Sequence record: MH051917
Source: Enterobacteria phage vB_EcoM_IME341
Length of the DNA stretch: 64,000 bases
Direction: 5' to 3' (one strand)
Shown piece after piece: positions 4,428-51,184 of the stretch. The notes beneath the pieces are model-generated. The model had not been told where the DNA came from. It did no database searches and worked only from the letters and a program-made list of their open reading frames with translations. Both the position numbers and the translations under genes were made by a program. The stretch's first letter is position 1. The number at the start of each line of letters is the position of its first letter.

Positions 4428-4439
4428 TTTAAAATAAGT

Positions 4440-4469
4440 GTTTACATACACCATGGATGGTGTTACTAT
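4440..4469 (+). promoter_or_regulatory. T4-type early promoter (GTTTAC -35, TACTAT -10)
   Basis: GTTTAC 4440-4445, TACTAT 4464-4469, spacer 18. Confidence 0.55.
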
Positions 4470-4497
4470 CTTCCTATCAACTAATGAGGAGAACAAA

Positions 4498-4764
4498 ATG
4501 GATATCAAATTGTATTACGCTAAACACAAAGTTACAGGTATGGTTGTTGCCGCTATGTATGATGCATCGGGTGAAGGTGATGATGTTACTACAGAGTTAT
4601 CTCTTTCTGAATGTAAATTTCTCCGTCCTTTGGTTGCATCAAAGGAAGATTTACAAAAACTTATCGACGGTAAACTAGATAATGTTGACGGCATAGATAT
4701 TCTTTATGACCTCCGCACTGCATTGTACAGGGGATTGATTGAGATAAAAGAGGTGGTGTTTTGA
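4498..4764 (+). CDS. hypothetical protein
   Basis: ATG 4498 after SD aatgaggag; 88 aa. Confidence 0.45.
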   Translation: MDIKLYYAKHKVTGMVVAAMYDASGEGDDVTTELSLSECKFLRPLVASKEDLQKLIDGKLDNVDGIDILYDLRTALYRGLIEIKEVVF

Positions 4765-4854: not shown

Positions 4855-4906
4855 GTATACATCTCCATTAGACATGATATTATAGACCTATCAACTAATG
4901 GAGATG
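4855..4906 (+). promoter_or_regulatory. early promoter embedded in stem-loop (PeSL-type)
   Basis: GTATAC 4855-4860, TATTAT 4878-4883; perfect 11-bp inverted repeat catctccatta (4860-4870) / taatggagatg (4896-4906). Confidence 0.55.
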
Positions 4907-4909
4907 ATT

Positions 4910-5020
4910 ATGAAAAATTTACTTAAAGCAATTTGGAACATGTTTGTGTTGTTAATGGTATTGAGCATTTTCCCAATCGTTTTTATGATTGACCATGTAC
5001 GTGTATTCTTTAACTTCTGA
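4910..5020 (+). CDS. small hydrophobic peptide (36 aa)
   Basis: short ORF MKNLLKAIWNMFVLLMVLSIFPIVFMIDHVRVFFNF downstream of promoter; below track length cutoff. Confidence 0.25.
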   Translation: MKNLLKAIWNMFVLLMVLSIFPIVFMIDHVRVFFNF

Positions 5021-5253: not shown

Positions 5254-5598
5254 ATGTCTAAAATCTTTTTTGGTAATGCTAAGGTAATGTTCTTTAAACA
5301 ACTCAGCCTTCAGGATGCATCGGTGGCATTCAATCAAAGTATGATTCCTGGCGTAGATTCAAAAATTATGACGAGTGCTGATTTCGTTTTTGTTCAAGAC
5401 CCGGAAACGGGCTTTTATCGGTTCATTAAATTTCGTATGAGTATGGACCCGTATTATCATAGCGGCTATTATGTGAGTTATGAAAATGTTATCAAAGAAC
5501 TACATGATACTTACGGACAGGCTTTGAACCCACTGAACAAGGTTTATAATGCTACCTTTTATACAAGCGGATTTATTTTAGAACAGCTACAAAAATAG
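5254..5598 (+). CDS. hypothetical protein
   Basis: ATG 5254 after SD aaggaaa; 114 aa. Confidence 0.45.
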   Translation: MSKIFFGNAKVMFFKQLSLQDASVAFNQSMIPGVDSKIMTSADFVFVQDPETGFYRFIKFRMSMDPYYHSGYYVSYENVIKELHDTYGQALNPLNKVYNATFYTSGFILEQLQK

Positions 5599-5634
5599 TT
5601 TACAACCTCGAGAATCATGTTATAATGGTTCTCG
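5598..5634 (+). promoter_or_regulatory. early promoter with -10 inside short hairpin
   Basis: GTTTAC 5598-5603, TATAAT 5621-5626, spacer 17; stem cgagaa (5609-5614) / ttctcg (5629-5634). Confidence 0.6.
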
Positions 5635-5675
5635 TTGACTGGATAACAAAACATTAATCTACTGAGGAAATTGAT

Positions 5676-6125
5676 ATGAATACTTATATGACTCGCCGTA
5701 ACGTTCTGTCTGCTGGTGCTACTACTGTTGCTTATGTTAAGAATGGTGAATACCAAAATGGTAAACCTTCTAAAGAAATCTCTGCTCAGCCAGGCTTCTA
5801 CTTCTTTGTTAAAGGTGGAGCTGATTCTCGTGTCGTAGCGGCTCGTTTTTATGTCGGTAATCAACGTTCTGCTCAAGGTCTTGATGGAATCGTGGCTAAC
5901 ATTCGTAAGAAACGTTCTCAATCAGCTCGCACTATGGCAGTGAACGGTGTGGTGTATGAAGTTCTTTATGTACCGGCTTCTAAAATGAAACCTCTGACTA
6001 CCGGTTTTGGTAAGGGTCAAATTGCAATGGCTTTCACTCGCAATCATAGTTCCGATCTCCAGACACTGGAAGAAATGAACCGCATGTTGGCTGATAACTT
6101 TAAATTCATTCTGCAGGCTTACTAA
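5676..6125 (+). CDS. ndd: Ndd nucleoid disruption protein
   Basis: 149 aa; [45 protein letters not shown] matches recalled T4 Ndd. Confidence 0.85.
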
Positions 6126-8006: not shown

Positions 8007-8107
8007 GCCTTGGAGTCGAGTTCTTGTTACTCTGTATCTTTGCTGTTATTCTAGGCCTGGCAACAGGCTTAGCTATAGGTTTAATAGCAGCCCACTTTAA
8101 AAAGTAA
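8003..8107 (+). CDS. small membrane peptide (34 aa)
   Basis: MSLGVEFLLLCIFAVILGLATGLAIGLIAAHFKK; ATG overlaps gp52 stop. Confidence 0.3.
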   Translation: MSLGVEFLLLCIFAVILGLATGLAIGLIAAHFKK

Positions 8108-8129
8108 GGAACCTTCGGGTTCCTTTTTT
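8108..8129 (+). terminator. rho-independent terminator
   Basis: ggaacc-ttcg-ggttcc hairpin followed by T6. Confidence 0.7.
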
Positions 8130-8147: not shown

Positions 8148-8176
8148 GTTTACTTCTGCTTTAAACATGATACTAT
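8148..8176 (+). promoter_or_regulatory. T4-type early promoter
   Basis: GTTTAC 8148-8153, TACTAT 8171-8176, spacer 17; followed by conserved tatagacctatcaa. Confidence 0.6.
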
Positions 8177-8214
8177 AGACCTATCAAAACAACAGAGTGA
8201 AATGGAGATACAAA

Positions 8215-8436
8215 ATGAAAACCTTAAATATTAATTCTTTTTTCTACAATGCTAATACCGATCATGCAATGTTCTTTGATTGTGATTTAGATACTTATAT
8301 CCATGTATGGGGTGTTAAGTCAGATAAAGTGGTTGTTAAGAAAAATTTAAAAACCGGTAATGGTCGTGGTCAAGCTAAAATTTCTTCCAAGAAAGTTGTT
8401 GAAGCTTATGTTGATTATGTTAAAAGCGCAATTTAA
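8215..8436 (+). CDS. hypothetical protein
   Basis: ATG 8215 after SD ggagata; track ORF starts at GTG 8197. Confidence 0.4.
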   Translation: MKTLNINSFFYNANTDHAMFFDCDLDTYIHVWGVKSDKVVVKKNLKTGNGRGQAKISSKKVVEAYVDYVKSAI

Positions 8437-8447
8437 TTAAAAAATTA

Positions 8448-8482
8448 TATACAAAGGTCTATGATAATGTTATTATAGACCT
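8448..8482 (+). promoter_or_regulatory. early promoter in stem-loop (weak -35)
   Basis: TATTAT -10 at 8471-8476; inverted repeat aggtctat (8455-8462) / atagacct (8475-8482). Confidence 0.45.
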
Positions 8483-8511
8483 ATCAAATAAATGGTTATC
8501 GGAGATACAAA

Positions 8512-9144
8512 ATGTCTAAAATTACTTATATCATCAAAGCTTCTGAAGACGTCCTGAATGAAAAAACTGCTTCGATCTTAGTACATATCATCAAGCATAA
8601 CTTCATCACTTCAGGCGAAGTCCGTGAAGCCCTGAGTGAGCATTTTAGTGCTGCGGTAGTTAACTCTAACATCGGTGTATTGATTAAGAAAGGGTTCATC
8701 GAAAAATCTGGTGATGGTTTAGTGGCTACAGGTGAAGCAATGGACTTGGTTCAAAAAGCTGCTGACCTGTTCGCTTCTGAAAATGCTCCAGAGATGTTGG
8801 AAAAACGTAAAACACGCAGTTCACGTGGTGTTACTCCTGAAATGGTAACACTGGCTGATGAAGTTAAAGCTTTATTAGAAGACCGCATCGAGATTCGTGA
8901 AATTGCTGAAAACCGTAGCAACCTTGAAGTTCGATTCGCCAAACGTACCAATGGTATTCGTCAAATTGAAGTCCGTCGTGATGGCATGATGCGCATCTTC
9001 GGTTATAATATGACTGATAAAGAAAAACAAGTGTTTACTTCCTTGAATCTTGATGTTAAGATTAAGACTGGTGGTAAGAATACTTATATCGACTTCCAAA
9101 ACGTATCATCTGAAGTTATCAAAACCGTAACCAATGCAATTTAA
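8512..9144 (+). CDS. motA: MotA middle-transcription activator
   Basis: 210 aa; MSKITYIIKAS.DVLNEKTA..VVNSNIGVLIKKG..EKSGDGL matches recalled T4 MotA. Confidence 0.85.
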   Translation: MSKITYIIKASEDVLNEKTASILVHIIKHNFITSGEVREALSEHFSAAVVNSNIGVLIKKGFIEKSGDGLVATGEAMDLVQKAADLFASENAPEMLEKRKTRSSRGVTPEMVTLADEVKALLEDRIEIREIAENRSNLEVRFAKRTNGIRQIEVRRDGMMRIFGYNMTDKEKQVFTSLNLDVKIKTGGKNTYIDFQNVSSEVIKTVTNAI

Positions 9145-10974: not shown

Positions 10975-11133
10975 ATGAGTCATAACTTAGAGAATACCGT
11001 AACAGGCATGCGTACGCGTGAGCAGGAGTGCTTTGAGGAATTCCTGGGAGCTGATTTTAAGTTCCAGGAACCAATAGAAGAGATGTATCAGGAATATGTT
11101 AAAAAGAACGAAGGACATGTTTACAATCCCTAA
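10975..11133 (+). CDS. small hypothetical protein (52 aa)
   Basis: ATG 10975 after SD gaggagc; below track cutoff. Confidence 0.25.
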   Translation: MSHNLENTVTGMRTREQECFEEFLGADFKFQEPIEEMYQEYVKKNEGHVYNP

Positions 11134-11147
11134 GGATATGTTAGTAT
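11119..11147 (+). promoter_or_regulatory. T4-type early promoter upstream of asiA
   Basis: GTTTAC 11119-11124, TAGTAT 11142-11147, spacer 17. Confidence 0.55.
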
Positions 11148-11188
11148 AGCCTTATCAGATAATGACGTACTGAATTGAAGAGAATATT

Positions 11189-11464
11189 ATGACTAAAATT
11201 GAAATCGTTTCCGAAATTGCCACTATTGTTTCCATTTTGATTAAAACGGATTGTGAAGACATCATGCAACGTCGTGATGAGTTTATTGCCTTTTTGAATG
11301 AGTTGGGTATTCGTAATGAACATGGAAAGGAACTTAATGGACTATCTTTTAATAAACTCTTTAAGTCTTTAACTGAAGATGAACGTGATACTCTTATCGA
11401 GCAATTTAATGAAGGGTATGAAGATATACACCGTTACCTAATGATGTATACCTCCAATTTTTAA
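11189..11464 (+). CDS. asiA: AsiA anti-sigma70 factor
   Basis: 91 aa; IVSEIATIVSILIK..FIAFLNE..LTEDERDTLIEQFNEGYEDIHRYLMMYT matches recalled T4 AsiA. Confidence 0.85.
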   Translation: MTKIEIVSEIATIVSILIKTDCEDIMQRRDEFIAFLNELGIRNEHGKELNGLSFNKLFKSLTEDERDTLIEQFNEGYEDIHRYLMMYTSNF

Positions 11465-22633: not shown

Positions 22634-22691
22634 GTTTACTTCTTCTAGGGTCATGATATAATGAACCTCTACACTAATTGGACAGAGGTTC
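22634..22691 (+). promoter_or_regulatory. early promoter plus 5' UTR hairpin upstream of rnh
   Basis: GTTTAC 22634-22639, TATAAT 22657-22662, spacer 17; stem gaacctct (22663-22670) / agaggttc (22684-22691). Confidence 0.6.
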
Positions 22692-22693
22692 AT

Positions 22694-23641
22694 ATGAACG
22701 ATTTAGATTTTTTACTTCCTGAAGAAGAACGTCAAAAAGATGGATTCTTGTTGTTAGACTTTAGCCAAATCATTATGGCTGCGGCATTCCAAGAATTTGG
22801 TGAAAATGCTGGATTTCCTAAAGTAACTACAGCAATGCTTCGACACCTCGTGTTGAATTCAATTAAGAAAAACATTAAAGACTTTAAAAAACAAGGTTAC
22901 AACCAACTGGTTATTTGTGTTGACAACTCTAAATCAGGTTATTGGCGACGTCGCTATTCACCTTATTATAAGAAAAACCGTGCCAAGGCTCGTGAAGAAT
23001 CATTATTTGATTGGGAAGGTTTATTTACGGCAATGCATTTGATTATTGATGAGCTTGAACATAACATGCCTTATATTGTTATGAACATCGATACTGTCGA
23101 GGCCGATGACCATATTGCTGTTTTGACTCGTATCCTTACGGCTTTAGGCCATCCGGTAATGATTGGTTCTTCGGACGGTGACTTTACTCAACTCCATAAA
23201 TTCCCTGGCGTTAAGCAATGGTCTCCAATGCAGAAAAAATTCGTTAAAACAAAAACCGGTGACTCATTACTGGATTGTGTAACTAAAGTGGTTAAAGGTG
23301 ACCGTAAAGATAACGTCGCGAGTATTAAAGTTCGTGGTGATTACTGGTTAACAATGGTTGAAGGCGAACGTACTCCTAGCACTCGTGCCAAGGAACTTGA
23401 AGCAATTGCTCTTAATTATTATGACCATGATATAATTAAAACACTTCTTACTGAAGAACAATATGAACGTTTCTGTGAAAACCAAATCTTAATTGATATG
23501 GACTTTATTCCAGATGATATTGTTGCTTTAATTACTGAAAGATATAATAACTACGTCAAACCTTCGAAATCTAAAGTTTATCCTTATTTCGTTAAATCAG
23601 GTTTGTCTAAATTAACCGCTACAGTAGCTGATTTCTATTAA
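22694..23641 (+). CDS. rnh: RNase H (FEN-1 family 5'-3' exonuclease)
   Basis: LLDFSQI..RHLVLNSIK..VICVDN.KSGYWRR..YYKKNR.KAREES.WDWEG match recalled T4 RNase H; start moved to ATG 22694 because track start lies in the promoter -10. Confidence 0.9.
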   Translation: MNDLDFLLPEEERQKDGFLLLDFSQIIMAAAFQEFGENAGFPKVTTAMLRHLVLNSIKKNIKDFKKQGYNQLVICVDNSKSGYWRRRYSPYYKKNRAKAREESLFDWEGLFTAMHLIIDELEHNMPYIVMNIDTVEADDHIAVLTRILTALGHPVMIGSSDGDFTQLHKFPGVKQWSPMQKKFVKTKTGDSLLDCVTKVVKGDRKDNVASIKVRGDYWLTMVEGERTPSTRAKELEAIALNYYDHDIIKTLLTEEQYERFCENQILIDMDFIPDDIVALITERYNNYVKPSKSKVYPYFVKSGLSKLTATVADFY

Positions 23642-25865: not shown

Positions 25866-25891
25866 GGGAAGACTTCGGTCTTCCCTTTTTG
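25866..25891 (+). terminator. rho-independent terminator after gene 32
   Basis: gggaagac-ttcg-gtcttccc hairpin followed by T5. Confidence 0.75.
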
Positions 25892-25901
25892 GCATTTAAT
25901 G

Positions 25902-25930
25902 GTTTACAACTCCTTTAAACATGATACTAT
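25902..25930 (+). promoter_or_regulatory. T4-type early promoter
   Basis: GTTTAC 25902-25907, TACTAT 25925-25930, spacer 17. Confidence 0.6.
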
Positions 25931-25959
25931 AGACCTATCAACTACATGAGGAAATAAAA

Positions 25960-26340
25960 ATGGAAATCGGTAAAAAATACGAACTTCGCCCTGAGCGTAT
26001 CAAAGCTTTTATTAATATTAGCCCTATCAATAATAACGATATGGTGGACATTATCCAAAACAATGGCGGTTGGTTTGAAGTGAAGGATACGATGACCTCG
26101 GATGGGGATAAATTTGTAACTAAAATCAAATGTGCAAATGGCGAGATTTTTAGTGATGATGGGTTACTAGAGAAATATTTTGAATTGCACGAAGATGAGT
26201 TCTATTGCTTCCGTGAATATTCTGAACAAGACGAAGTTGAACCTGTTACTAAGGCGGGCGTGACTCAAATCCATTGCATTGTCACCGAACAGAACGTTGA
26301 TCAAATCATTGAACTTTTGCAAAAAACTTTTAAGGCCTAA
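25960..26340 (+). CDS. hypothetical protein (paralog A of 26951..27325)
   Basis: 126 aa; shares EYFEL.E.EF..F.E and C-terminal pattern with the ORF at 26951. Confidence 0.5.
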   Translation: MEIGKKYELRPERIKAFINISPINNNDMVDIIQNNGGWFEVKDTMTSDGDKFVTKIKCANGEIFSDDGLLEKYFELHEDEFYCFREYSEQDEVEPVTKAGVTQIHCIVTEQNVDQIIELLQKTFKA

Positions 26341-26603: not shown

Positions 26604-26638
26604 GTTTACAAGGTCTGTAGATATGATACTATAGACCT
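26604..26638 (+). promoter_or_regulatory. early promoter in stem-loop
   Basis: GTTTAC 26604-26609, TACTAT 26627-26632; stem aggtct (26611-26616) / agacct (26633-26638). Confidence 0.6.
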
Positions 26639-26664
26639 ATCAACTAATGAGTGAGGAAAATAAA

Positions 26665-26892
26665 ATGGCTAAGGTTAATATTGATATCGTTGATTTTGAA
26701 TACACTTATGAAGTTATCCGTAACCGTTATCCTTCTTTGAGTATGGCTTACATTAAAGATACTCAATTCTTTAGTATTCAAATTGAAGTCCAGGGTCCTC
26801 TTGAAGACCTTACCCGCTTTATGGCTGATGAGTATTGTGACGGTATGCATGCTGAAGACGCTGAATTTTATATGGGCTTAATTCGAGCGTAG
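26665..26892 (+). CDS. hypothetical protein
   Basis: ATG 26665 after SD gagtgaggaaaa. Confidence 0.4.
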
Positions 26893-26927
26893 TATACAAA
26901 CCAACGGGAACATGATAATATGTTCCC
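26892..26927 (+). promoter_or_regulatory. early promoter with -10 in hairpin loop
   Basis: GTATAC 26892-26897; perfect 8-bp stem gggaacat (26906-26913) / atgttccc (26920-26927) around a 6-nt loop gataat (26914-26919). Confidence 0.5.
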
Positions 26928-26950
26928 TCAACAAAAATGAGGAAATTAAA

Positions 26951-33836: not shown

Positions 33837-34981
33837 TTGAATTATATGATAACTTGATGGCCCTGGTTAAAAACTCGACTAAATCTAAGTTCTTCTTTAA
33901 AGACTTTCAGAGTGCGCTAGGAGTCAACTATCGCATCTTTAGTTATAACTATGCATCGTACAGTGATTGGTTGGAAGACGGCGCCCTAGAGTGTCGAGGC
34001 ATTATGTTTGAAATGGACGAGAATGGTCCGGTACGTATTGCTGCTCGTCCTATGCAAAAGTTCTTTAACCTCGACGAAAACCCTATGACTATCGGTCTGG
34101 ACTTGTCGCCAGAAAATATCGACCTCGTAATGGCTAAGGAAGATGGTTCTCTGATTTCTACATTCATGGACCGACAGTATCTTTCTGTTAAATCTAAAGG
34201 CTCTATCCATTCGTCAATGGTGCACGATTCTTTACGTTTCCTTCGTCTCCCTGAGAACGAGGCTTTTGCCGCACGTCTAGAAGAAATCACCAAAGCCGGG
34301 TATACCTGCAACCTTGAATATGTCGCACCTACCAACCGTATCGTGCTGGCTTACCAAGAAACGAACCTCATCCTGTTAAACGTTCGTAATAATGAAACAG
34401 GTGAGTATATTCCATATGCTGAACTGTTTAAGGACGGCGCGCTGCGTAAGCATTTGGTTGAAAGTTATGACCTCACCGAAGGTGATTTCGTAGAAAACAT
34501 CCGTAAACAAGAGGGTATTGAAGGTTTTATCTTTGTACTGAAAGATGGTACGTTCTTTAAACTCAAAACTGCATGGTACAGTGCACTGCATCATACCAAA
34601 GATTCCATTAACAATAACGAACGTTTGTTTGAAGTTGTAGTGGCGGGTGGAACTGATGACCTTCGTGGTCTGTTCAGTACAGATTCGTTTGCTATCGAGA
34701 AAATCGATGCCTTCGAACGTATCCATTTAGATTACTTAGAACAATCATTGGCTTTGTTGGAAGCAGCTTACTCTCAACTCAAGGGCCGCGACCGTAAAGA
34801 CTACGCTGTTACTGGACAGCTAATCCTTAAGGACTTCCCAGGGTTGTTCTCTATTCTTATGCAGGCGTACGTAGGCGGTATTAATTATGATACGGTTGTA
34901 GACCAGATTAACTCTGTGTTCTTGAAAAACCATAAAGCCCAAATCCCTGAAAAATATTTGAAAGAAATTGCGGTAGAGTAG
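33833..34981 (+). CDS. rnlA: RNA ligase 1
   Basis: 382 aa; YRIFSYNYASYSDW..ECRGIMFEMD..KEDGSL (adenylation lysine motif) match recalled T4 Rnl1. Confidence 0.9.
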   Translation: MIELYDNLMALVKNSTKSKFFFKDFQSALGVNYRIFSYNYASYSDWLEDGALECRGIMFEMDENGPVRIAARPMQKFFNLDENPMTIGLDLSPENIDLVMAKEDGSLISTFMDRQYLSVKSKGSIHSSMVHDSLRFLRLPENEAFAARLEEITKAGYTCNLEYVAPTNRIVLAYQETNLILLNVRNNETGEYIPYAELFKDGALRKHLVESYDLTEGDFVENIRKQEGIEGFIFVLKDGTFFKLKTAWYSALHHTKDSINNNERLFEVVVAGGTDDLRGLFSTDSFAIEKIDAFERIHLDYLEQSLALLEAAYSQLKGRDRKDYAVTGQLILKDFPGLFSILMQAYVGGINYDTVVDQINSVFLKNHKAQIPEKYLKEIAVE

Positions 34982-35032
34982 TTTACATCTCCTCATGATG
35001 TGTTAGTATAGACTTACCAACTAATGAGGAGA
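34981..35032 (+). promoter_or_regulatory. early promoter in stem-loop (PeSL-type)
   Basis: GTTTAC 34981-34986, TAGTAT 35004-35009, spacer 17; 9-bp stem tctcctcat (34988-34996) / atgaggaga (35024-35032). Confidence 0.6.
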
Positions 35033-35039
35033 AAACAAA

Positions 35040-35540
35040 ATGAATATGCAAATGATTACTAACGAAATGGTTGTTAAGGCTTTTGGTGACTCTACTGACG
35101 GTATCCAAGTTTTTAAAGGTTCTCGTGCAGTAGGTTACCTGACCGATCTTCGTGTTACTTTAGCTAAAAATGCTAAAAAGAAAATCAAGCAAAAAGAATA
35201 CTCTACCCGTTATGCAGAAGAAAAGCGTGAAGCCATGCCTGAAGCTGTTAACTCTATGGTTGAGTTTCTCCAAAACAACCTTTCCAAGTACGATGCCGAG
35301 GTATTCATTAATATTAGCCAACCTAATGTTAAAATCTCAGGCATCACTTTCTATTTGATTTGTGACCCATTAAGCGACAAGTTTAATCGCCTTGGCATTT
35401 CAAGTCCTTACCATACCGCTGAAGAATTATGTTTTATGTTCGAAACGTACAAAATTCAGTGCGAAAATCCTAAAACGGTTCTTATTAATTCCCTGTCACG
35501 TGATGACATCATCGAGATTATTACCAAATGTCTAAATTAA
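35040..35540 (+). CDS. hypothetical protein at alc (unf) position
   Basis: 166 aa between rnlA and the spanins, where T4 alc (167 aa) maps; synteny and size only. Confidence 0.4.
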   Translation: MNMQMITNEMVVKAFGDSTDGIQVFKGSRAVGYLTDLRVTLAKNAKKKIKQKEYSTRYAEEKREAMPEAVNSMVEFLQNNLSKYDAEVFINISQPNVKISGITFYLICDPLSDKFNRLGISSPYHTAEELCFMFETYKIQCENPKTVLINSLSRDDIIEIITKCLN

Positions 35541-36168: not shown

Positions 36169-36269
36169 TTGAGTGTAGTCTTGGTTGGGATGCCGTTAGA
36201 TTAGCTATCGCATTCTTTTGCTTCGGGATTGCGTTCAGTATGTGTATTGATGGTCTTTTTGGAAAGTAG
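36165..36269 (+). CDS. small membrane peptide (34 aa)
   Basis: MIECSLGWDAVRLAIAFFCFGIAFSMCIDGLFGK; ATG overlaps o-spanin stop. Confidence 0.25.
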   Translation: MIECSLGWDAVRLAIAFFCFGIAFSMCIDGLFGK

Positions 36270-36303
36270 TTTACAAACTCTTGGGAGCAGAGTATAATGC
36301 TCC
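36269..36303 (+). promoter_or_regulatory. early promoter with -10 in hairpin
   Basis: GTTTAC 36269-36274, TATAAT 36293-36298; stem ggagca (36284-36289) / tgctcc (36298-36303). Confidence 0.55.
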
Positions 36304-36333
36304 TACGGATTATAAAAAATTGAGGAAATTATT

Positions 36334-36812
36334 ATGACTTTACGTGATAACAGTTTTGTGGCTAAGCCTGAATACATTTCAGGTGTTAAATCTCCTGCAT
36401 TACAAAAGCTCCTTAAGCTAGGGTCCTGTGCAAGTACACCACTTGAAAAGAAGGCAACTTTCGATTTTGCTTGGGCTATGGTAGACGGTATTGATGTAGT
36501 AAGACAGGTAACTTTTTATGCTCCAGGGTCTATTGAGCCTTCGCAGATTATTAATTTGGATGGAAGTAATTATATTACCATCCAACAATGGTATCGTATG
36601 ATGCGCCCGGTTTGGGAATACCCTGAATTCGTTGAAGAATATAATGAAAAAGAACGTATTCGTGAATTGGTGAAAAGTTTTGAATATGCGGCTAAACGCC
36701 ATGGTCAAATGCAATCCGCAGTAACCCTTGGCGATGTTCCTGAAAGTGTTGCTTACGAATCAGGTAAAACCCTTAAAACTTGCCGTGAAGAACTTTATAA
36801 GGAACTTGGCGT

Positions 36813-38710: not shown

Positions 38711-38740
38711 GTTTACTTTCACCAAGGACGGTGATATGAT
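38711..38740 (+). promoter_or_regulatory. T4-type early promoter
   Basis: GTTTAC 38711-38716, TATGAT 38735-38740, spacer 18. Confidence 0.5.
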
Positions 38741-38770
38741 GACCTTACCGAAACAAATGAGGAAATCGAA

Positions 38771-39325
38771 ATGAGTAAGTTCTTTGAAGAGCGTAAGTTT
38801 TACAAGTTCGTTGGTGAATACACTAAAAACAAATTCACTAATAACGGTGCTTATGGCCTCAATACAGCTTTTGCTAAGTATGTGGGTATGAATCCGTTTG
38901 AAGTTGAAATTGATTACCATAATGGGCGTGAACGTGTAAGCCGAATTCGCGTATATGACGAGATGATGTTTGTCGACCCGAGCAAAATGACAGGTAATCC
39001 TGACGATGCAAATAGTGTTCTTTTTAATTCAGCGGGCTTTTTTAGCCATGAATTCGAATACTTTATCGAAGTGGTAGACCCTAAAGAAGTGCAGTTAGTT
39101 TTCCAGAACCCTGAAATCAAACCTATTAAAACTCCAGCCGATTGGAAAGTGCTTATTGTTAAAAATGGTAAGATTGAAGTTCATTCTCGCCATAACACAA
39201 AGGAACAAGCCGATCGTCAGGCTGAAGAGCTTTTGACCAGTTCGTTCCAACAAGTGTGTTATATTGTTAAAGGCGATGTTACCCAAGCTACCACTACCAA
39301 ACAACTTAAGTTGGAGACAATCTAA
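38771..39325 (+). CDS. hypothetical protein
   Basis: 184-aa ORF, SD aatgaggaaa. Confidence 0.5.
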   Translation: MSKFFEERKFYKFVGEYTKNKFTNNGAYGLNTAFAKYVGMNPFEVEIDYHNGRERVSRIRVYDEMMFVDPSKMTGNPDDANSVLFNSAGFFSHEFEYFIEVVDPKEVQLVFQNPEIKPIKTPADWKVLIVKNGKIEVHSRHNTKEQADRQAEELLTSSFQQVCYIVKGDVTQATTTKQLKLETI

Positions 39326-41751: not shown

Positions 41752-41821
41752 CCGTCGAATTGTCTGATTATCGATTTACGAATCGGTATGTTTTAGAAGT
41801 ACCGCCCCGACAATTTTACGG
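41752..41821 (+). other. long-range imperfect stem-loop immediately 3' of rIII
   Basis: ccgtcgaattgtc (41752-41764) pairs with gacaattttacgg (41809-41821), about 12 of 13 positions paired including one GU; encloses an inner cgatt/aatcg hairpin. Confidence 0.35.
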
Positions 41822-41849
41822 TGTACCTCTTGAATGTATTTTGTACTAT
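41821..41849 (+). promoter_or_regulatory. T4-type early promoter driving a ~155-nt leader
   Basis: GTGTAC 41821-41826, TACTAT 41844-41849, spacer 17. Confidence 0.45.
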
Positions 41850-42166: not shown

Positions 42167-42171
42167 GTTAT

Positions 42172-42196
42172 GGGACTCTTCGGAGTCCCATTTTTG
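42172..42196 (+). terminator. rho-independent terminator
   Basis: gggactc-ttcg-gagtccc hairpin followed by T5. Confidence 0.75.
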
Positions 42197-42217: not shown

Positions 42218-42246
42218 GTGTACATCTCCGGTAGGCATGATACTAT
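42218..42246 (+). promoter_or_regulatory. T4-type early promoter (cassette copy 1)
   Basis: GTGTAC 42218-42223, TACTAT 42241-42246, spacer 17. Confidence 0.6.
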
Positions 42247-42292
42247 AGACCTGTACCAAATAATACGAAAACAAACTGGAGAATAAAATGAA
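42244..42292 (+). repeat. 49-nt direct repeat copy 1 (promoter -10 through start codon)
   Basis: tatagacctgtaccaaataatacgaaaacaaactggagaataaaatgaa identical to 42687-42735. Confidence 0.85.
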
Positions 42293-42660: not shown

Positions 42661-42700
42661 GTTTACTTTGGTACAGGTTGTGTTATTATAGACCTGTACC
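42661..42700 (+). promoter_or_regulatory. early promoter in perfect stem-loop (cassette copy 2)
   Basis: GTTTAC 42661-42666, TATTAT 42684-42689, spacer 17; 9-bp stem ggtacaggt (42670-42678) / acctgtacc (42692-42700). Confidence 0.65.
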
Positions 42701-42735
42701 AAATAATACGAAAACAAACTGGAGAATAAAATGAA
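42687..42735 (+). repeat. 49-nt direct repeat copy 2
   Basis: identical to 42244-42292. Confidence 0.85.
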
Positions 42736-49028: not shown

Positions 49029-49031
49029 ATA

Positions 49032-51155
49032 ATGGAAAATTTAAACGAGGTTTTTGATAGTGATTCCGCTAAAAACTATCCAGTAACAAATCTTAAACCG
49101 GGTTCCGGTATCCCACAGATTTTCTCTATCCATGCACCAGGTAATGATAACCTGGTGGCTCGTATGGTATCTTATGCGTCTCAAGGAGACGCTATTAAAA
49201 TGGTTAAGCCAGGCGACAAATACATTCATGTTATTCTAATGAGTTTGTCAAGCAAGGGTGCTCCGGCTGAACTTAAGGGTGGCCTTGGTTCTGACCCACT
49301 TGGTACACTGAATACCATTTTCGATACTGTATACGAACAAGTAAACAAACTTAAAATGGATGCAGTTTTATTCCGTTTCCCTACCAAGAAAATGAAAGGT
49401 AAGGGTCCTACTGTTCAGCGCGTATTGGCACGTTTGGCGATGGCTCGTACCGGTGGTAAGTTTAAAGTTGTTGACAACATGTTCCAATTCAGTGGAAAAC
49501 ATACCTACGTTCTTTTAGTACGTCGTGGTTCTAATATCGAAGATATCAAAGGCATGCCTGAAATTGATGCTGACCTTTATACCAAAGTCGATTCTAAAGT
49601 CGGCGAAGTGTATGTTTCTAAGAAAACCGGCCAGGCCGTAAGTAAGGTCGAAGCCGTAGCGGCATCTATTGCACAGGTTGAAGAGAAACGTACCGATAAG
49701 GCTGTCATTACTCGTACTAAGATTTCACGACGTATGGCCGCAGCCGCGCAGTATTCTACTGCTGAGCCTGAAACTTTGCCCCCTAAAGAATTGCAGGTTT
49801 ATAACGAATTTGAAGCTTCTGTACCGGTTCACACTGCCGAAGGCCCTGAGAACGAAGGTATTGAACAGATTAGTCAGAACTTTAAAAAAGGTGCTATTAC
49901 CAAAATGCGCCAGGCTTCTCAGTTTAAATCTAAGAGCGAGGACCTTGCCAACTTTAGATACACCATTGCTCTCACACATGCTTTAATGACTGATAGTAAA
50001 TTTAAACTAAATTATGCTAATAGAGATAAACAAGGGTTTGAAATTTACTCTAAAAATATGGCATTTTTTAATACAGAAGTCGATAGACTTTTAAGCGGCC
50101 TTTCGCAAATCAATACAACTAATAGTCTGGATATTATTAAGAGAATTGTTAATAACCTGAGTGCCCGTTTTAATGGTTCCCCTTCAGAGAAAGCATCTCG
50201 AATTGCTTTCGCTATGGAAGCCGTTTATAAACTGATTAACGATTCTATTGGTGATGCATATGCTTATTCAGGCGAACTCATTAAACCTAAGGACCTAACC
50301 AAAGACGAAAGCAATGCTATTATTGAATATTGCGCAGCTGAATATGCTCCTATGAACTTATTCCTTTTAGGTAAACCTGAATCCGAAAACAATACAACGG
50401 CTATTAGATTGATTAAGGATTTAGACTCGGCATTTACTAAGGGTATTAAACTTCCTAAGGGTACTATTTTGTATCGTGGTCAGGATTTGCCATACAAAAT
50501 TCTGCGTCATAATATCGATAACAAAACATTTTACTTTAAGAACTTTGTGTCCGCCTCACTAAAGCCTAACATCTTTGGTGAATTCGGTAAAAATTATATG
50601 GCCCTCGACAACCAAGCCGTTTTTGTTGGTGGTGAAGGTTCTTTATCCTCCGCTGATGAGTTGTTTAAATTGGCTAGTGGTAGTTCATCTGATGTGGGTG
50701 AAGTCGATGACGAAGAGGTAGAATGGGAAGAAGACGAGTTTGGTAATCCAATTGCCCCTGAAGGTCCTGCGGATAGAATTGCTGAAATAGGCATGGTTAT
50801 TCGAGGTGCTGAAGCAGTTAAAGTTATCGCTCCTGGTGACCTTACAGAATACGCTGAAGAAGCAGAAATCATCCTTCCGCGAGGATTATTGATGAAGGTT
50901 GATAAAGTAGCGGCTTTTGCTATGAATGATAGGGTATCTCACAAATATCTTATGGAAGCTACTGTGATGTCTCCTTCAGAGCTCAGTGAATCTGTTTACG
51001 ATGGTGACCATCTAATGGAAACCGGTGAAGTTCGTCCGATGGATGGCTTTAAACAGTTCTTGGTTAGTGAATCTGTTTCTGAAAGCAACGAGGCTATGGA
51101 AATCTTAGCAGCATCTTTGGATATCTCTTCTCTACCAAATAAATTCAAAATGTAG
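49032..51155 (+). CDS. Alt-like ADP-ribosyltransferase paralog, copy 2
   Basis: 707 aa; N-terminal ~230 aa similar to copy 1; YRGQ, FVSASLK (SAS instead of STS), EAEIILPRG; acidic insert before the ExE. Confidence 0.8.
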   Translation: MENLNEVFDSDSAKNYPVTNLKPGSGIPQIFSIHAPGNDNLVARMVSYASQGDAIKMVKPGDKYIHVILMSLSSKGAPAELKGGLGSDPLGTLNTIFDTVYEQVNKLKMDAVLFRFPTKKMKGKGPTVQRVLARLAMARTGGKFKVVDNMFQFSGKHTYVLLVRRGSNIEDIKGMPEIDADLYTKVDSKVGEVYVSKKTGQAVSKVEAVAASIAQVEEKRTDKAVITRTKISRRMAAAAQYSTAEPETLPPKELQVYNEFEASVPVHTAEGPENEGIEQISQNFKKGAITKMRQASQFKSKSEDLANFRYTIALTHALMTDSKFKLNYANRDKQGFEIYSKNMAFFNTEVDRLLSGLSQINTTNSLDIIKRIVNNLSARFNGSPSEKASRIAFAMEAVYKLINDSIGDAYAYSGELIKPKDLTKDESNAIIEYCAAEYAPMNLFLLGKPESENNTTAIRLIKDLDSAFTKGIKLPKGTILYRGQDLPYKILRHNIDNKTFYFKNFVSASLKPNIFGEFGKNYMALDNQAVFVGGEGSLSSADELFKLASGSSSDVGEVDDEEVEWEEDEFGNPIAPEGPADRIAEIGMVIRGAEAVKVIAPGDLTEYAEEAEIILPRGLLMKVDKVAAFAMNDRVSHKYLMEATVMSPSELSESVYDGDHLMETGEVRPMDGFKQFLVSESVSESNEAMEILAASLDISSLPNKFKM

Positions 51156-51184
51156 TTTACAACACCACAAGGATGTGGTACTAT
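51155..51184 (+). promoter_or_regulatory. T4-type early promoter
   Basis: GTTTAC 51155-51160 (starts on last base of alt-2 stop), TACTAT 51179-51184. Confidence 0.5.

What the first reader, a model, noticed from the sequence alone, without database searches (positions are those of the whole stretch)
4438..51184. Family of about 18 early promoters embedded in stem-loops
The element GTTTAC / GTGTAC / GTATAC - N17-18 - TAtAAT-like recurs at 4440, 4855, 5598, 8148, 8448, 11119, 22634, 25902, 26604, 26892, 27332, 34981, 36269, 38711, 41821, 42218, 42661 and 51155. It is usually followed by tatagacctatcaa...aatgaggag and an ATG. In many copies the -10 lies in the loop or 3' arm of a perfect 6-11 bp inverted repeat (for example 4860-4870/4896-4906, 8455-8462/8475-8482, 26906-26913/26920-26927, 34988-34996/35024-35032, 42670-42678/42692-42700). 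This matches the promoter-early-stem-loop cassettes described for T4-type phages, which are proposed to mediate modular shuffling of accessory genes. Here they flank nearly every block of small unknown ORFs.
Basis: partly seen in the sequence, partly recalled or inferred. Interest (0 to 1): 0.5.

Follow-up and report, generated by a model that had tools for sequence, protein, structure and literature searches.

The report
Early promoter–hairpin cassettes (PeSLs)
This stretch of a JS98-like (Dhakavirus) T4-type coliphage carries 17 copies of a strong early-promoter cassette, most with a built-in hairpin or an adjacent terminator; this is the already described "PeSL" element of T4-type phages, so the finding is real but ordinary for this phage group.

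Summary
Seventeen of the 18 cited sites form one tight family: A/T-rich upstream tract, GT(T/A/G)TAC, 17-18 nt, TGn, TAnnAT, a leader, a Shine-Dalgarno (SD) sequence and an ATG. All lie on the early-gene strand. Site 41821 is a chance match, and 8448 is really ATATAC at 8447. All five quoted inverted repeats are perfect at the stated coordinates. The cassettes fold far better than plain gene junctions (mean z -2.0 against -0.4). Spacer arms match their own downstream arms, not those of other copies (p<5e-5).

There are three architectures:
- The -10 lies in the hairpin loop (7 sites).
- The spacer pairs with the cassette's own SD (3 sites).
- A separate UUCG-loop terminator lies 14-16 nt upstream (3 sites).

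The window is a mosaic Dhakavirus genome. T4 has orthologous promoters with orthologous hairpins.

Two relatives carry single chimeric cassettes where the window has two cassettes flanking ORFs, which is the predicted PeSL recombination product. However, breakpoints are no commoner at cassettes than at plain gene junctions (9/17 against 32/58). The embedded hairpins also lack U-tracts.

Verdict: a new member of a known kind (PeSL / T4 early promoters). The only fresh angle is the anti-SD arm inside an early promoter's spacer.

The parts
4440..4500 (+). Cassette P4440. -35 GTTTAC at 4440-4445, -10 TACTAT at 4464-4469. Small hairpin within the spacer, 4448-4454/4457-4463. SD is GAGGAGAACAAAA. 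ATG at 4498 (ORF 4498-4764, function unknown, downstream of denB).
   Evidence: The ribosome-binding site is predicted less open in read-through RNA (6.1 against 1.8 kcal/mol).
4855..4912 (+). Cassette P4855. -35 GTATAC, -10 TATTAT at 4878-4883. Class B: a 12-bp stem, 4860-4871 (spacer) with 4895-4906 (SD GGAG). ATG at 4910 (36-aa ndd.4-like ORF).
   Evidence: Fold z -6.1, -20 kcal/mol. Ribosome-binding-site opening cost 16.7 against 1.9 kcal/mol.
5598..5678 (+). Cassette P5598 (ndd). -10 TATAAT at 5621-5626. Class A: 10-bp stem 5609-5618/5625-5634 (one U.G pair) with the -10 in the loop. The upstream stop codon TAG overlaps the G of the -35. ATG at 5676.
   Evidence: z -3.3
8106..8125 (+). 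Intrinsic terminator AAGGAACC-TTCG-GGTTCCTT followed by TTTT. It lies after gp52 and its hairpin-plus-U-tract structure ends 14 nt upstream of the -35 of P8148.
8148..8217 (+). Cassette P8148. -10 TACTAT at 8171-8176. No embedded hairpin. ATG at 8215 (73-aa ORF, variable between relatives).
8447..8514 (+). Cassette P8447 (motA). -35 ATATAC, -10 TATTAT at 8471-8476. Class A: stem 8455-8462/8475-8482, extending to 12 bp in RNA. ATG at 8512.
   Evidence: z -5.1. Five relatives (IME281, WG01, JS10, EcWhh-1, VR5) have no hairpin here and a spacer of the P8148 type; AnYang keeps the window's version.
11119..11191 (+). Cassette P11119 (asiA). -10 TAGTAT at 11142-11147. Only a weak 5-bp helix, TAAGG/CCTTA. 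The upstream ORF's stop codon lies inside the spacer. ATG at 11189.
   Evidence: The VR5 allele has a 6-bp class A stem, AAGAAT/ATTCTT.
22634..22696 (+). Cassette P22634 (rnh). -10 TATAAT at 22657-22662. Hairpin in the leader, 22663-22670/22684-22691, covering the SD AGAGG. The likely start is ATG 22694; the ATG at 22661 lies inside the -10.
   Evidence: Ribosome-binding-site opening cost 10.3 against 4.2 kcal/mol.
25866..25885 (+). Intrinsic terminator GGGAAGAC-TTCG-GTCTTCCC followed by TTTTT. It lies after gene 32, 16 nt upstream of the -35 of P25902.
25902..25962 (+). Cassette P25902. -10 TACTAT at 25925-25930. No embedded hairpin. ATG at 25960 (frd.2b).
26604..26667 (+). Cassette P26604 (frd.3). 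-10 TACTAT at 26627-26632. Class A: 10-bp stem 26611-26620/26629-26638 (one G.U pair). ATG at 26665.
   Evidence: z -4.1. IME281 and EcWhh-1 have a perfect 10-bp version. WG01 and VR5 have none.
26892..26953 (+). Cassette P26892 (frd.2a-like ORF). -35 GTATAC, -10 TAATAT at 26916-26921. Class A: stem 26906-26913/26920-26927. The upstream TAG overlaps the -35. ATG at 26951.
   Evidence: z -4.1. In six relatives this ORF sits at another position.
27332..27406 (+). Cassette P27332 (frd.1). -35 GTGTAC, -10 TATAAT at 27356-27361. Class A: stem 27344-27350/27363-27369 (one G.U pair). SD is GGAGAATAAAA. ATG at 27404.
   Evidence: z -2.2. Relatives have an unrelated promoter allele here with its own stem, (A)AGGCTAT/ATAGCCT(T).
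34981..35042 (+). Cassette P34981 (alc). -10 TAGTAT at 35004-35009. Class B: 9-bp stem, 34988-34996 (spacer) with 35024-35032 (SD GAGGAG). The rnlA stop codon TAG overlaps the -35. ATG at 35040.
   Evidence: z -3.8. Ribosome-binding-site opening cost 8.8 against 1.0 kcal/mol. Kept in all relatives, and a bulged 8-bp equivalent exists in T4.
36269..36336 (+). Cassette P36269. -10 TATAAT at 36293-36298. Class A: stem 36282-36289/36298-36305. The upstream TAG overlaps the -35. ATG at 36334 (ORF variable between relatives).
   Evidence: z -3.3. A paralogous cassette in IME281 is 88% identical and carries a compensatory G-C to C-G change.
38711..38773 (+). Cassette P38711 (after cd.3). -10 TATGAT at 38735-38740. 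Only a 4-bp spacer hairpin, 38720-38723/38730-38733. ATG at 38771.
   Evidence: Aligns with the T4 early promoter Pe133295. WG01, JS10, EcWhh-1 and VR5 have a perfect 9-10-bp class A stem in their alleles, and T4 a 9-pair stem with one G.U.
42170..42191 (+). Intrinsic terminator ATGGGACTC-TTCG-GAGTCCCAT followed by TTTT. It lies after 30.9, and its extended predicted hairpin ends 16 nt upstream of the -35 of P42218.
42218..42290 (+). Cassette P42218 (30.8). -35 GTGTAC, -10 TACTAT at 42241-42246. Weak class B helix 42225-42232/42275-42282 (one G.U pair). SD is GGAGAATAAAA. ATG at 42288.
   Evidence: In AnYang and JS10 this promoter is fused directly to the 30.6 homologue.
42661..42733 (+). Cassette P42661 (30.7). 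-10 TATTAT at 42684-42689. Class A: 12-bp stem 42667-42678/42692-42703. ATG at 42731.
   Evidence: z -5.0. The T4 30.7 promoter has GGTACAGG/CCTGTACC at the same place.
51155..51215 (+). Cassette P51155 (alt.-3). -10 TACTAT at 51179-51184. 5-bp spacer hairpin 51165-51169/51174-51178. The alt stop codon TAG overlaps the -35. ATG at 51213.
41821..41849 (+). GTGTAC-N17-TACTAT, but no A/T tract, no TGn, and no SD+ATG behind it.
   Evidence: The matrix score is below 10 bits. Sequence.

Best explanation
These are T4-type early promoters. The host sigma-70 RNA polymerase recognises four elements at once: an A/T-rich UP tract, a -35 of GTTTAC, TGn, and a -10 of TAnnAT. Each promoter is packaged with a short leader, an SD and the start codon of the next early gene. 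This is the composite 'PeSL' cassette already described in RB49/phi1, T4/PST and nt-1/KVP40. Here it occurs in a mosaic JS98-like Dhakavirus.

The stem-loops are selected structures. Their 5' arm lies inside the -35/-10 spacer, so they can form only in RNA that reads through from an upstream promoter. Transcripts started at the cassette's own promoter begin about 7 nt after the -10 and lack the 5' arm. Three designs coexist.

(A) The 3' arm lies just after the -10, so the -10 sits in the loop. This design occurs only where the upstream stop codon is 10 nt or less from the -35, or overlaps it. There the promoter spacer is the only free room for an intercistronic hairpin. I infer that this hairpin marks or stabilises the 3' end of the upstream cistron, or attenuates read-through.

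(B) The spacer is an anti-SD. In read-through RNA it pairs with the cassette's own SD, so the ORF should be translated only from transcripts of its own early promoter. This is the logic of T4 e, soc, 49 and I-TevI applied to early promoters.

(T) Where 50 nt or more of intergenic space exists, a separate UUCG-tetraloop intrinsic terminator with a U-run sits 14-16 nt upstream of the -35.

The cassettes share 20-60 bp of identity across the -10, leader and SD. They are therefore occasional substrates for ordinary homologous recombination that deletes, swaps or moves the ORFs between them. Most gene gains and losses in this region, however, occur at plain gene junctions through microhomology.

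Shown here: family membership, excess structure, geometry, conservation in relatives and in T4, chimeric cassettes, and the lack of breakpoint enrichment. Inferred: promoter activity, and what the hairpins do in RNA.
For: Promoter family. Seventeen sites score 23-36 bits, all on the + strand. The regex gives 13 matches against 0.5 expected. Every site is followed by an SD and an ATG. Relatives have 15-18 such sites per 50-kb locus (11 in the AnYang stretch that is partly late genes) and none on the other strand. T4 has 11 in the syntenic 50 kb, all in the early direction. The T4 record itself notes early promoter Pe133295 between cd.2 and cd.3, which aligns with P38711. The UP/-35/TGn/-10 description of T4 early promoters comes from PMC2988021.

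Identity of the window. It is a Dhakavirus, 87-96% identical to AnYang, IME281, JS10, WG01, EcWhh-1 and VR5.

Structure.
- z -2.0 against -0.4 at plain junctions, p about 3e-5.
- Own-against-other arm permutation p<5e-5, for n=17 and n=53.
- Individual hairpins fold at -12 to -20 kcal/mol with z -2.2 to -6.1.

Selection for structure rather than sequence.
- The frd.1 promoter has unrelated alleles, each with its own stem around the -10.
- In the cd promoter stem, T4 and the WG01-type allele differ by two compensatory pairs and one G.U.
- P36269 and an IME281 paralogue are 88% identical with a G-C to C-G swap in the stem.
- T4 keeps the 30.7 hairpin, and its alc spacer can pair with its SD (8 bp with a bulge, read by eye).

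Class B. The cost of opening the ribosome-binding site is 16.7 against 1.9 kcal/mol at P4855 and 8.8 against 1.0 at P34981, comparing read-through RNA with the promoter's own RNA. Class A sites show no difference. More class B cassettes lie outside the window, including stems of 11-13 bp, in AnYang and IME281. The T4 precedents are in PMC3014915.

Class T..

Recombination. WG01 has a single chimeric cassette, P8148 upstream half plus motA leader. AnYang has a P25902/P26604 chimera. The two alignments overlap by 48-63 bp at these junctions. Deletions at plain junctions overlap by only 3-9 bp. The ORF between P8148 and P8447 exists in at least three alternative versions or is absent. The frd.2a ORF, bounded by P26892 and P27332, sits at another position in six relatives.
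Against: - No transcription or translation data were available, so promoter activity and every hairpin function are inferred.
- The embedded hairpins lack a U-run, so efficient intrinsic termination is unlikely (sequence).
- Some orthologous promoters have lost the hairpin: motA in five relatives (all but AnYang), frd.3 in WG01 and VR5, and the window's own cd promoter allele. The hairpin is therefore dispensable at individual sites.
- P11119, P38711 and P51155 have only 4-5-bp helices.
- Formal covariation on the one orthologous alignment tested was not significant (97 of 500 shuffles did as well).
- The test of G.U against A.C mismatches, meant to separate sense-RNA from DNA structure, was underpowered (3 against 1).
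- Breakpoints are not enriched at cassettes: 9/17 against 32/58 junctions, Fisher p=1.0.
- Cassette-bounded ORFs are not significantly more variable: 3/6 as computed (one of the six, asiA, was counted spuriously, so effectively 3/5) against 16/66, p=0.18.
Confidence: 0.8

Rival explanations
1. The embedded stem-loops are transcription terminators or attenuators, as the PeSL authors proposed. They would insulate each cassette from upstream transcription and stop early transcription spilling into downstream genes.
For: One RB49 PeSL stem-loop lowered lacZ expression as much as the rrnB T1 terminator in a reporter (PMC2839356). Class A hairpins sit exactly at the end of the upstream cistron, with the stop codon 10 nt or less from the -35. 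They are stable, at -12 to -19 kcal/mol.
Against: None of the embedded hairpins is followed by a U-run. The sequence after them is an A-rich leader. The same genome uses canonical UUCG-loop hairpins with U-runs where it has room, which shows what a terminator looks like here. Many genes downstream of class A cassettes belong to long multi-gene blocks that need read-through. Class B stems are interrupted by a 23-27-nt loop that includes the -10.
Confidence: 0.3
2. Class A hairpins are RNA-stability elements. After RegB or RNase E cuts read-through RNA at the downstream GGAG SD or in the A-rich leader, the hairpin becomes the 3' end of the upstream cistron. It then protects that cistron from 3'-5' exonucleases.
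For: Several cassette SDs match the strong RegB site GG*AGRAYARAA exactly: GGAGAACAAAA at P4440, and GGAGAATAAAA at P27332, P42218 and P42661. RegB cuts early intergenic GGAG, and decay from the 3' end involves PNPase (PMC3014915). The hairpin lies 15-40 nt upstream of the SD.
Against: Whether this phage encodes RegB was not checked, as the gene would lie outside the window. There is no decay data. Hairpins have been lost at some orthologous sites.
Confidence: 0.25
3. The inverted repeats act at the DNA level. They would be cruciform or hairpin targets for a recombinase or endonuclease VII that actively mobilises the cassettes, producing mini-circles and site-specific shuffling.
For: The PeSL authors speculated about a protein that binds the stem. 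Mini-circles were detected in RB49/phi1. Cassette-by-cassette deletions exist here.
Against: Both chimeric cassettes have parents without embedded hairpins (P8148, P25902). Their crossovers lie in the longest identical tract (-10 plus leader), as expected for plain homologous recombination. The arms differ completely in sequence between cassettes, so no sequence-specific protein can recognise them. The stems are 6-12 bp, which is short for cruciform extrusion. Several stems rely on G.T pairs that would be A.C mismatches on the other strand. Breakpoints are not enriched at cassettes.
Confidence: 0.05
4. The hairpins are by-products. They could be chance complementarity within repeated, AT-rich, partly self-complementary promoter sequence, or palindromic operators for a dimeric repressor.
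For: The extended -10, aTGaTAnnAT, is partly self-complementary and lengthens some stems. Many copies share the leader AGACCT.
Against: Own-against-other permutations keep composition and still give p<5e-5. The arms have unrelated sequences in different cassettes, which rules out a common operator. There are compensatory differences between paralogues and between T4 and Dhakavirus.
Confidence: 0.03

Closest known systems
PeSLs (promoter-early stem-loops) of T4-type phages: RB49/phi1 (Arbiol et al. 2010, PMC2839356); T4/PST and nt-1/KVP40 (Comeau et al. 2014, PMC4122927)
   Same: Composite of an A/T-rich tract (often holding the upstream stop codon), a sigma-70-type early promoter, a stem-loop, an SD and an ATG. 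The stem is most often between the hexamers or over the -10, as in RB49. G.T pairs occur in the stems. The cassettes sit in plastic early regions upstream of small ORFs. Relatives differ by single chimeric cassettes, with crossovers between the -10 and the ATG.
   Different: The stems are not the G(n)-loop-C(n) of RB49 or the AGNA-loop-TCNT placed upstream of the promoter that was reported for T4/PST. The arms are idiosyncratic. A distinct subclass pairs the spacer with the SD, which those papers do not discuss (one search found no mention of sequestration or translation). The embedded stems lack U-runs. In this window cassettes are not enriched for breakpoints. For this genus, PeSL-like sequences had been mentioned only for the JS98 g43 region.
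Bacteriophage T4 early promoters (Pe): 'uber' UP/-35/TGn/-10 promoters (Hinton 2010, PMC2988021)
   Same: The same consensus (GTTTAC, 17-18 nt, TGn, TAYTAT), the same strand, and the same genomic positions (ndd, motA, asiA, frd region, alc, cd.2/cd.3, 30.7, 30.8, alt.-3). The leader motif CTATCAAC is shared. T4 also has the 30.7, cd and alc hairpins.
   Different: The Dhakavirus copies share a longer, near-identical leader, TATAGACCTATCAACTAATGAGGA. Some positions carry alternative, non-homologous promoter alleles.
T4 e, soc, 49 and I-TevI leaders: the SD or AUG is sequestered in read-through RNA, and a promoter inside the hairpin gives translatable transcripts (reviewed in PMC3014915)
   Same: Class B cassettes (P4855, P34981, weakly P42218; P22634 with a leader hairpin) have the 5' arm upstream of the cassette's own transcription start and the 3' arm over the SD. 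Only promoter-proximal transcripts should be translatable.
   Different: The internal promoter is an early sigma-70 promoter, not a late or middle one. The 5' arm lies in the -35/-10 spacer itself. The switch would restrict translation to the immediate-early window rather than delay it. This has not been tested experimentally.
Morons of lambdoid phages, and integron cassettes
   Same: Small accessory genes that bring or sit behind their own promoter (and terminator) in plastic genome regions.
   Different: There is no integrase and no attC. Exchange relies on homology between repeated regulatory cassettes or on microhomology. The genes are early lytic genes, not lysogenic-conversion genes.

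Membership tests
PeSL (promoter-early stem-loop cassette) | Sigma-70-like early promoter: -35 and -10 hexamers 17+/-1 nt apart, oriented toward the downstream early gene | tested here: met
   Seventeen sites have GT(T/A/G)TAC or ATATAC, a 17-18-nt spacer, and TGn-TAnnAT. All are on the + strand.
PeSL (promoter-early stem-loop cassette) | [quoted passage not shown] | tested here: met
   A-rich tracts lie upstream of most copies. The stop codon is 0-12 nt from the -35 at 11 of 17 sites, and TAG overlaps the -35 at 5598, 26892, 34981, 36269 and 51155.
PeSL (promoter-early stem-loop cassette) | A stable stem-loop within or next to the promoter (between the hexamers, over the -35 or -10, upstream, or just downstream) | tested here: met
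   Ten of 17 have an embedded helix of 6.5-12 bp. Three have an upstream UUCG terminator. One has a leader hairpin. The remaining sites (4440, 11119, 38711, 51155) have only small helices of 4-7 bp in or beside the spacer. The excess over controls is shown.
PeSL (promoter-early stem-loop cassette) | SD and start codon of the downstream gene at the 3' end; conservation among copies over up to about 100 bp | tested here: met
   All 17 have an SD and an ATG 20-43 nt from the predicted start. The leader TATAGACCTATCAA is exact in 5 copies. A paralogous pair is 88% identical over 84 nt.
PeSL (promoter-early stem-loop cassette) | Preferential location in hyperplastic regions, upstream of small ORFs of unknown function | tested here: met
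   Twelve of 17 head ORFs of unknown function in the ndd, frd, pseT-cd and 30.x regions. None lies in the late-gene blocks.
PeSL (promoter-early stem-loop cassette) | Recombination between two cassettes deletes or swaps the ORFs between them, leaving a chimeric cassette | tested here: met
   WG01 chimera. AnYang chimera. Alignment overlap of 48-63 bp at these junctions. Alternative ORFs between P8148 and P8447.
PeSL (promoter-early stem-loop cassette) | Cassettes are preferred sites of insertions, deletions and replacements relative to the rest of the plastic regions | tested here: not met
   Nine of 17 cassette junctions carry a breakpoint, against 32 of 58 plain junctions (Fisher p=1.0). ORF variability is 3/6 against 16/66, p=0.18. 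The sample is small: one window and six relatives.
PeSL (promoter-early stem-loop cassette) | The stem-loop acts as a transcription terminator or attenuator | not testable with these tools
   At the sequence level, only the three upstream UUCG hairpins have a U-run. The embedded stems do not.
PeSL (promoter-early stem-loop cassette) | Strong promoter activity in vivo; formation of mini-circles | not testable with these tools
   Needs reporter assays and inverse PCR on infected cells.
T4-type early promoter (Pe) | UP element, -35 GTTTAC, TGn and -10, all present together | tested here: met
   Alignment. The same matrix finds 11 sites in the syntenic T4 region, all in the early direction. The definition comes from PMC2988021.
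T4-type early promoter (Pe) | Position orthologous to a mapped T4 early promoter | tested here: met
   P38711 aligns with T4 Pe133295, which is noted in the T4 record. The T4 hits upstream of 30.7 and alc align with window cassettes, and those upstream of motA and alt.-3 correspond by the downstream ORF start shown. That those T4 sites are experimentally mapped early promoters is from my own knowledge of the T4 literature, not from a tool.
SD-sequestering leader with an internal promoter (T4 e / soc / 49 / I-TevI type) | SD or AUG base-paired in transcripts from upstream promoters, and free in transcripts from the internal promoter | tested here: met
   In silico only. Opening cost is 16.7 against 1.9 kcal/mol (P4855), 8.8 against 1.0 (P34981) and 10.3 against 4.2 (P22634).
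SD-sequestering leader with an internal promoter (T4 e / soc / 49 / I-TevI type) | The internal promoter is a late (or middle) promoter, so translation is delayed | tested here: not met
   Here the promoter is an early sigma-70 promoter. The cassette therefore works like this family but is not a member of the described set.
SD-sequestering leader with an internal promoter (T4 e / soc / 49 / I-TevI type) | A measured difference in translation between long and short transcripts | not testable with these tools
   Needs reporter fusions or ribosome profiling.

The most novel reading that the evidence does not exclude
A subset of T4-type early promoters (P4855, P34981/alc and weakly P42218 here; further 6-13-bp examples in AnYang and IME281; the alc promoter of T4) carries an anti-Shine-Dalgarno sequence in its own -35/-10 spacer. 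The downstream ORF would then be translated only from RNA started at that promoter and would be silent, and protected from RegB, on read-through RNA. This would be a promoter-origin gate that confines those proteins to the first minutes of infection. It is a function of PeSL stem-loops that the PeSL papers do not consider, and it is distinct from termination or recombination.
Probability: 0.35. Interest if true: 0.5.

Novelty: new member of a known kind. Interest (0 to 1): 0.3.

Why it matters
The cassettes give a ready-made map of immediate-early transcription units for a therapy-relevant group of coliphages (the JS98/Dhakavirus group).

They also show concretely how accessory genes are lost, swapped and moved between close relatives. 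Two clean cassette-by-cassette recombinants document this. The negative enrichment result tempers the idea that PeSLs drive most of the plasticity. In this region plain gene junctions with 3-9 bp of microhomology account for more events.

Splitting the stem-loops into three architectures makes the long-assumed 'terminator' role testable. It also points to a simple experiment on translation gating of early genes such as alc.

Tried and rejected
Rejected as a family member: matrix score below 10 bits, no UP tract, no TGn, no SD.
- Two extra candidates from the scan. Site 9033 (inside motA, 20 bits, conserved in all relatives) and 36101 (15.5 bits) lack the leader and SD and lie in coding sequence, so I left them out of the family.
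- G.U against A.C mismatch counts. These were meant to decide between a sense-RNA and a double-stranded-DNA structure. Only 3 against 1 informative cases were found, so the result is inconclusive.
- Formal covariation on the cd-promoter orthologue alignment. Two compensatory pairs were found, but this is not significant with 7 distinct sequences.
- Breakpoint enrichment at cassettes, and variability of cassette-bounded or cassette-headed ORFs. No significant signal.
- Rfam scan of the whole window. No family reached its gathering score.
- Miller et al. 2003 T4 genome review (PMC150520). Not held in the library, so T4's mapped promoter list could not be checked directly.
- HSP chaining. It mis-joined the duplicated alt genes in AnYang and WG01. 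Those two events were corrected by hand from the HSP list.
- My first automatic start-codon picks for P4440 and P4855 were wrong and were corrected.

Full report
WHAT THE WINDOW IS. Megablast of three parts of the window against GenBank phages finds only T4-type coliphages. The best matches are Dhakavirus genomes (JS98/JS10 group: AnYang, IME281, WG01, EcWhh-1, VR5 and others) at 87-96% identity. The closest relative differs from segment to segment. Annotation of AnYang and IME281 maps the window as follows:
- Early genes on the + strand: rIIA-rIIB-denB-ndd-52-motA-arn-asiA (1-11464).
- Late genes on the - strand: t-38-37-36-35-34 (11461-22586).
- Early genes on the + strand: rnh-dsbA-33-59-32-frd-td-nrdAB-denA-rnlA-alc-pseT-cd-31-rIII-30.x-lig-alt (22661-51503).
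- After that, late baseplate genes.

- A two-block weight matrix scores these 17 sites at 23-36 bits.
- Only two other + strand sites pass 10 bits: 9033 inside motA and 36101.
- Nothing on the - strand exceeds 12.5 bits.
- The matrix was trained on the 17 sites, so I also ran an independent regex. GTTTAC-N17/18-TANNAT occurs 13 times, all on the + strand, against 0.50 expected.
- The leader TATAGACCTATCAA is exact five times.

ARE THE STEM-LOOPS MORE THAN CHANCE? Yes, by three independent tests.
1. Folding from the -35 to the ATG gives a mean z of -2.0 against dinucleotide shuffles. The 65 nt upstream of 58 promoter-less gene starts give -0.40, and 60 random windows give -0.37. Mann-Whitney p is about 3e-5.
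2. Strand folding on nine hairpins gives -12 to -20 kcal/mol and z from -2.2 to -6.1.
3. A permutation test that keeps each region's composition pairs each spacer with its own or another cassette's downstream sequence. It gives p<5e-5 for the 17 sites. It gives the same for 53 non-redundant promoter alleles collected from the window and six relatives: 22 of 53 own pairs reach a helix score of 7 or more, against 9.6% of cross pairs.

ANATOMY: THREE ARCHITECTURES.

Class A (5598, 8447, 26604, 26892, 27332, 36269, 42661).
- The 5' arm lies in the spacer. The 3' arm starts between 4 nt before and 3 nt after the end of the -10.
- The loop is 6-13 nt, so the -10 sits in the loop or in the 3' arm.
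- All class A promoters have the upstream stop codon 10 nt or less from the -35. At 5598, 26892 and 36269 the TAG shares its G with the -35.

Class B (4855, 34981, weakly 42218).
- The spacer is complementary to the cassette's own SD (12, 9 and 8 bp). The ATG lies 4-7 nt after the 3' arm.

Class T (8148, 25902, 42218).
- There is no strong embedded stem. A GC-rich UUCG-tetraloop hairpin with a U-run lies 14-16 nt upstream of the -35.
- These are the cassettes with 50 nt or more of intergenic room.

The rest.
- P22634 has a leader hairpin over its SD.
- P4440, P38711 and P51155 have small hairpins inside the spacer.
- P11119 has only a weak helix.

None of the embedded stems is followed by a U-run.

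CONSEQUENCE OF THE GEOMETRY. A transcript from the cassette's own promoter starts about 7 nt after the -10, so it lacks the 5' arm. The hairpins can therefore exist only in read-through RNA, or in single-stranded DNA. I computed the free-energy cost of opening the ribosome-binding site in a long (read-through) RNA and in a short (own-promoter) RNA.
- P4855: 16.7 against 1.9 kcal/mol.
- P34981 (alc): 8.8 against 1.0.
- P22634: 10.3 against 4.2.
- Class A sites: no difference.

Class B thus resembles the T4 e, soc, 49 and I-TevI leaders. There the SD is sequestered in long transcripts, and a promoter inside the hairpin yields translatable RNA (PMC3014915). The difference is that the internal promoter here is an early one. 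The PeSL papers do not consider this.

EVOLUTIONARY EVIDENCE. The same matrix finds 15-18 sites per 50-kb locus in the relatives (11 in the AnYang stretch that is partly late genes) and none on the opposite strand. It finds 11 in the syntenic 50 kb of T4.

Hairpins persist while sequences change:
- The frd.1 promoter is ATGGGGC/GTCCCAT in the window and an unrelated (A)AGGCTAT/ATAGCCT(T) allele in all six relatives.
- The promoter after cd.3 has a perfect 9-10-bp stem, GGTAGGACT/AGTCCTACC, in WG01, JS10, EcWhh-1 and VR5. T4's Pe133295 has GGTAGAGTT/AGCTCTACC, with two compensatory pairs and one G.U.
- P36269 and a paralogous cassette upstream of 55.2 in IME281 are 88% identical over 84 nt. In the stem they differ by G-C to C-G.
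- T4 keeps the 30.7 hairpin, and its alc spacer can pair with its SD (8 bp with a bulge, read by eye).

Against this:
- Hairpins are missing from motA in five relatives (AnYang keeps it), from frd.3 in WG01 and VR5, and from the window's own cd allele.
- The single formal covariation test is not significant.
- The comparison of G.U with A.C mismatches is underpowered.

Further class A and class B cassettes occur outside the window in AnYang and IME281, including SD-pairing stems of 11-13 bp.

MODULAR SHUFFLING. Blastn blocks of the window against six relatives give 43 distinct structural differences in the early regions.

Four loci show exactly what the PeSL model predicts.
1. Between gp52 and motA the window has P8148-ORF-P8447. 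WG01 has one chimeric cassette, with P8148-type terminator, UP tract, -35 and spacer joined to the motA-type leader. IME281, JS10 and EcWhh-1 carry a different ORF there, and VR5 carries a third.
2. AnYang has a single P25902/P26604 chimera and lacks the two ORFs between those cassettes.
3. The ORF 26951-27325, bounded by P26892 and P27332, sits directly after the gene 32 promoter in six relatives. The window's arrangement recurs in LQ5, LHE83, TH54 and 04086.
4. P42218 is fused to the 30.6 homologue in AnYang and JS10.

At the two chimeras the alignments overlap by 48-63 bp. The crossover lies in the identical tract of -10 plus leader, and neither upstream parent has an embedded hairpin. This is therefore ordinary homologous recombination between repeats, not a stem-directed event.

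However, cassettes are not preferred:
- Nine of 17 cassette junctions carry a breakpoint, against 32 of 58 plain junctions (Fisher p=1.0).
- Cassette-bounded ORFs are variable in 3 of 6 cases as computed (asiA was counted spuriously, so effectively 3 of 5), against 16 of 66 (p=0.18).
- Promoter-headed ORFs are variable in 6 of 16 cases, against 13 of 56 (p=0.34).
- Deletions at plain junctions show only 3-9 bp of overlap.

WHAT IT IS. The elements are T4-type early promoters, the UP/-35/TGn/-10 'uber' promoters described in PMC2988021. They are organised as PeSL cassettes (PMC2839356, PMC4122927). All sequence-level defining features are met. The recombination product is observed. The claimed preference for breakpoints is not seen in this sample. 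Terminator, promoter and mini-circle activities cannot be tested in silico. No Rfam family matches anywhere in the window.

HOW IT MOST LIKELY WORKS. Host sigma-70 RNA polymerase fires these promoters immediately after infection. This is inferred from the consensus and from orthology to T4 promoters.

In RNA arriving from upstream, the three designs would act differently:
- Class T hairpins terminate. This rests on their canonical intrinsic-terminator features.
- Class B stems hide the SD. Those ORFs would then be made only from their own early promoter. The GGAG would also be hidden from RegB, since structure protects against RegB.
- Class A stems provide the intercistronic hairpin at junctions too tight to hold a separate one. 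Whether they attenuate transcription or stabilise the 3' end of the upstream cistron cannot be decided here. Several SDs match the RegB consensus GGAGRAYARAA exactly, which would make such hairpins new 3' ends after cleavage.

Repeated identity across the -10 and leader occasionally lets the phage recombination system delete, swap or move the intervening ORFs.

NOVELTY. The kind is known, and its authors predicted it for 'probably all' T4-like phages. For Dhakavirus it had been mentioned only for the JS98 g43 region. I rate this a new member of a known kind, of modest interest. The anti-SD-in-spacer subclass is the only part that may be new.

Noticed in passing
window 3411-3426, 6352-6365, 33401-33414, 43107-43122, 46892-46907: Five more GC-rich UUCG-tetraloop hairpins on the + strand lie at promoter-less early gene junctions. 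Three of them (3411, 6352, 43107) are followed directly by an SD and an ATG. The hairpins at 3411 and 43107 are the identical 16-mer GGAGGCTTCGGCCTCC. They look like 'stem-loop + SD' half-cassettes. The right end of the AnYang/JS10 deletion (43125) lies next to one of them.
   Followed up: partly
window 4487-4497, 27393-27403, 42277-42287, 42720-42730: The SDs of P4440 (GGAGAACAAAA) and of P27332, P42218 and P42661 (GGAGAATAAAA) match the strong T4 RegB cleavage consensus GG*AGRAYARAA exactly. I did not check whether this phage encodes RegB, as the gene would lie outside the window.
   Followed up: partly
window 9033-9062 (inside motA, 8512-9144): A complete promoter-like site lies inside the motA coding region, about 100 nt before the next gene: an A-rich tract, GTTTAC, N18, TGt and TAAGAT. 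It scores 20 bits and is present in all six relatives. The scan found no counterpart in T4. It has no conserved leader or SD.
   Followed up: partly
window 51510-51533: A strong hairpin, AAAGGAGAGC-GTAT-GCTCTCCTTT, with a T-run on the + strand, lies between the last early ORF (alt.-3) and the convergent late gene 54. It is a likely terminator at the junction of the two convergent transcription units.
   Followed up: no
window 24201-24208 and 24852-24931: Relatives carry insertions that the window lacks: about 670-710 bp in AnYang between genes 33/59 and 59/32, and in VR5 between 59/32. These are annotated as homing endonucleases of the seg type.
   Followed up: partly
window 22657-22696: Relatives annotate the rnh start in two ways. 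The ATG at 22661 lies inside the -10 hexamer of P22634, so it cannot be on that promoter's transcript. The ATG at 22694 has an SD (AGAGG) that sits in the leader hairpin. 22694 is the more plausible start.
   Followed up: partly
whole window: The genome is a mosaic. The closest relative changes by segment. AnYang is about 96% identical over 1-12 kb, ABTNLsp5 about 95% over 33-52 kb, and only about 90% identity (EcWhh-1, dhaeg, JS10) is found over the frd region 25.8-29.8 kb. The long tail-fibre genes 37 and 34 diverge to about 68-72% or do not align.
   Followed up: no
L008 (IME281) 11677 compared with window 36269: Near-identical cassettes (88% over 84 nt, from the upstream tract to the ATG) head unrelated ORFs in two early regions roughly 75 kb apart on the circular genome (55.2 and pseT). 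This indicates cassette duplication or gene conversion across the genome.
   Followed up: partly
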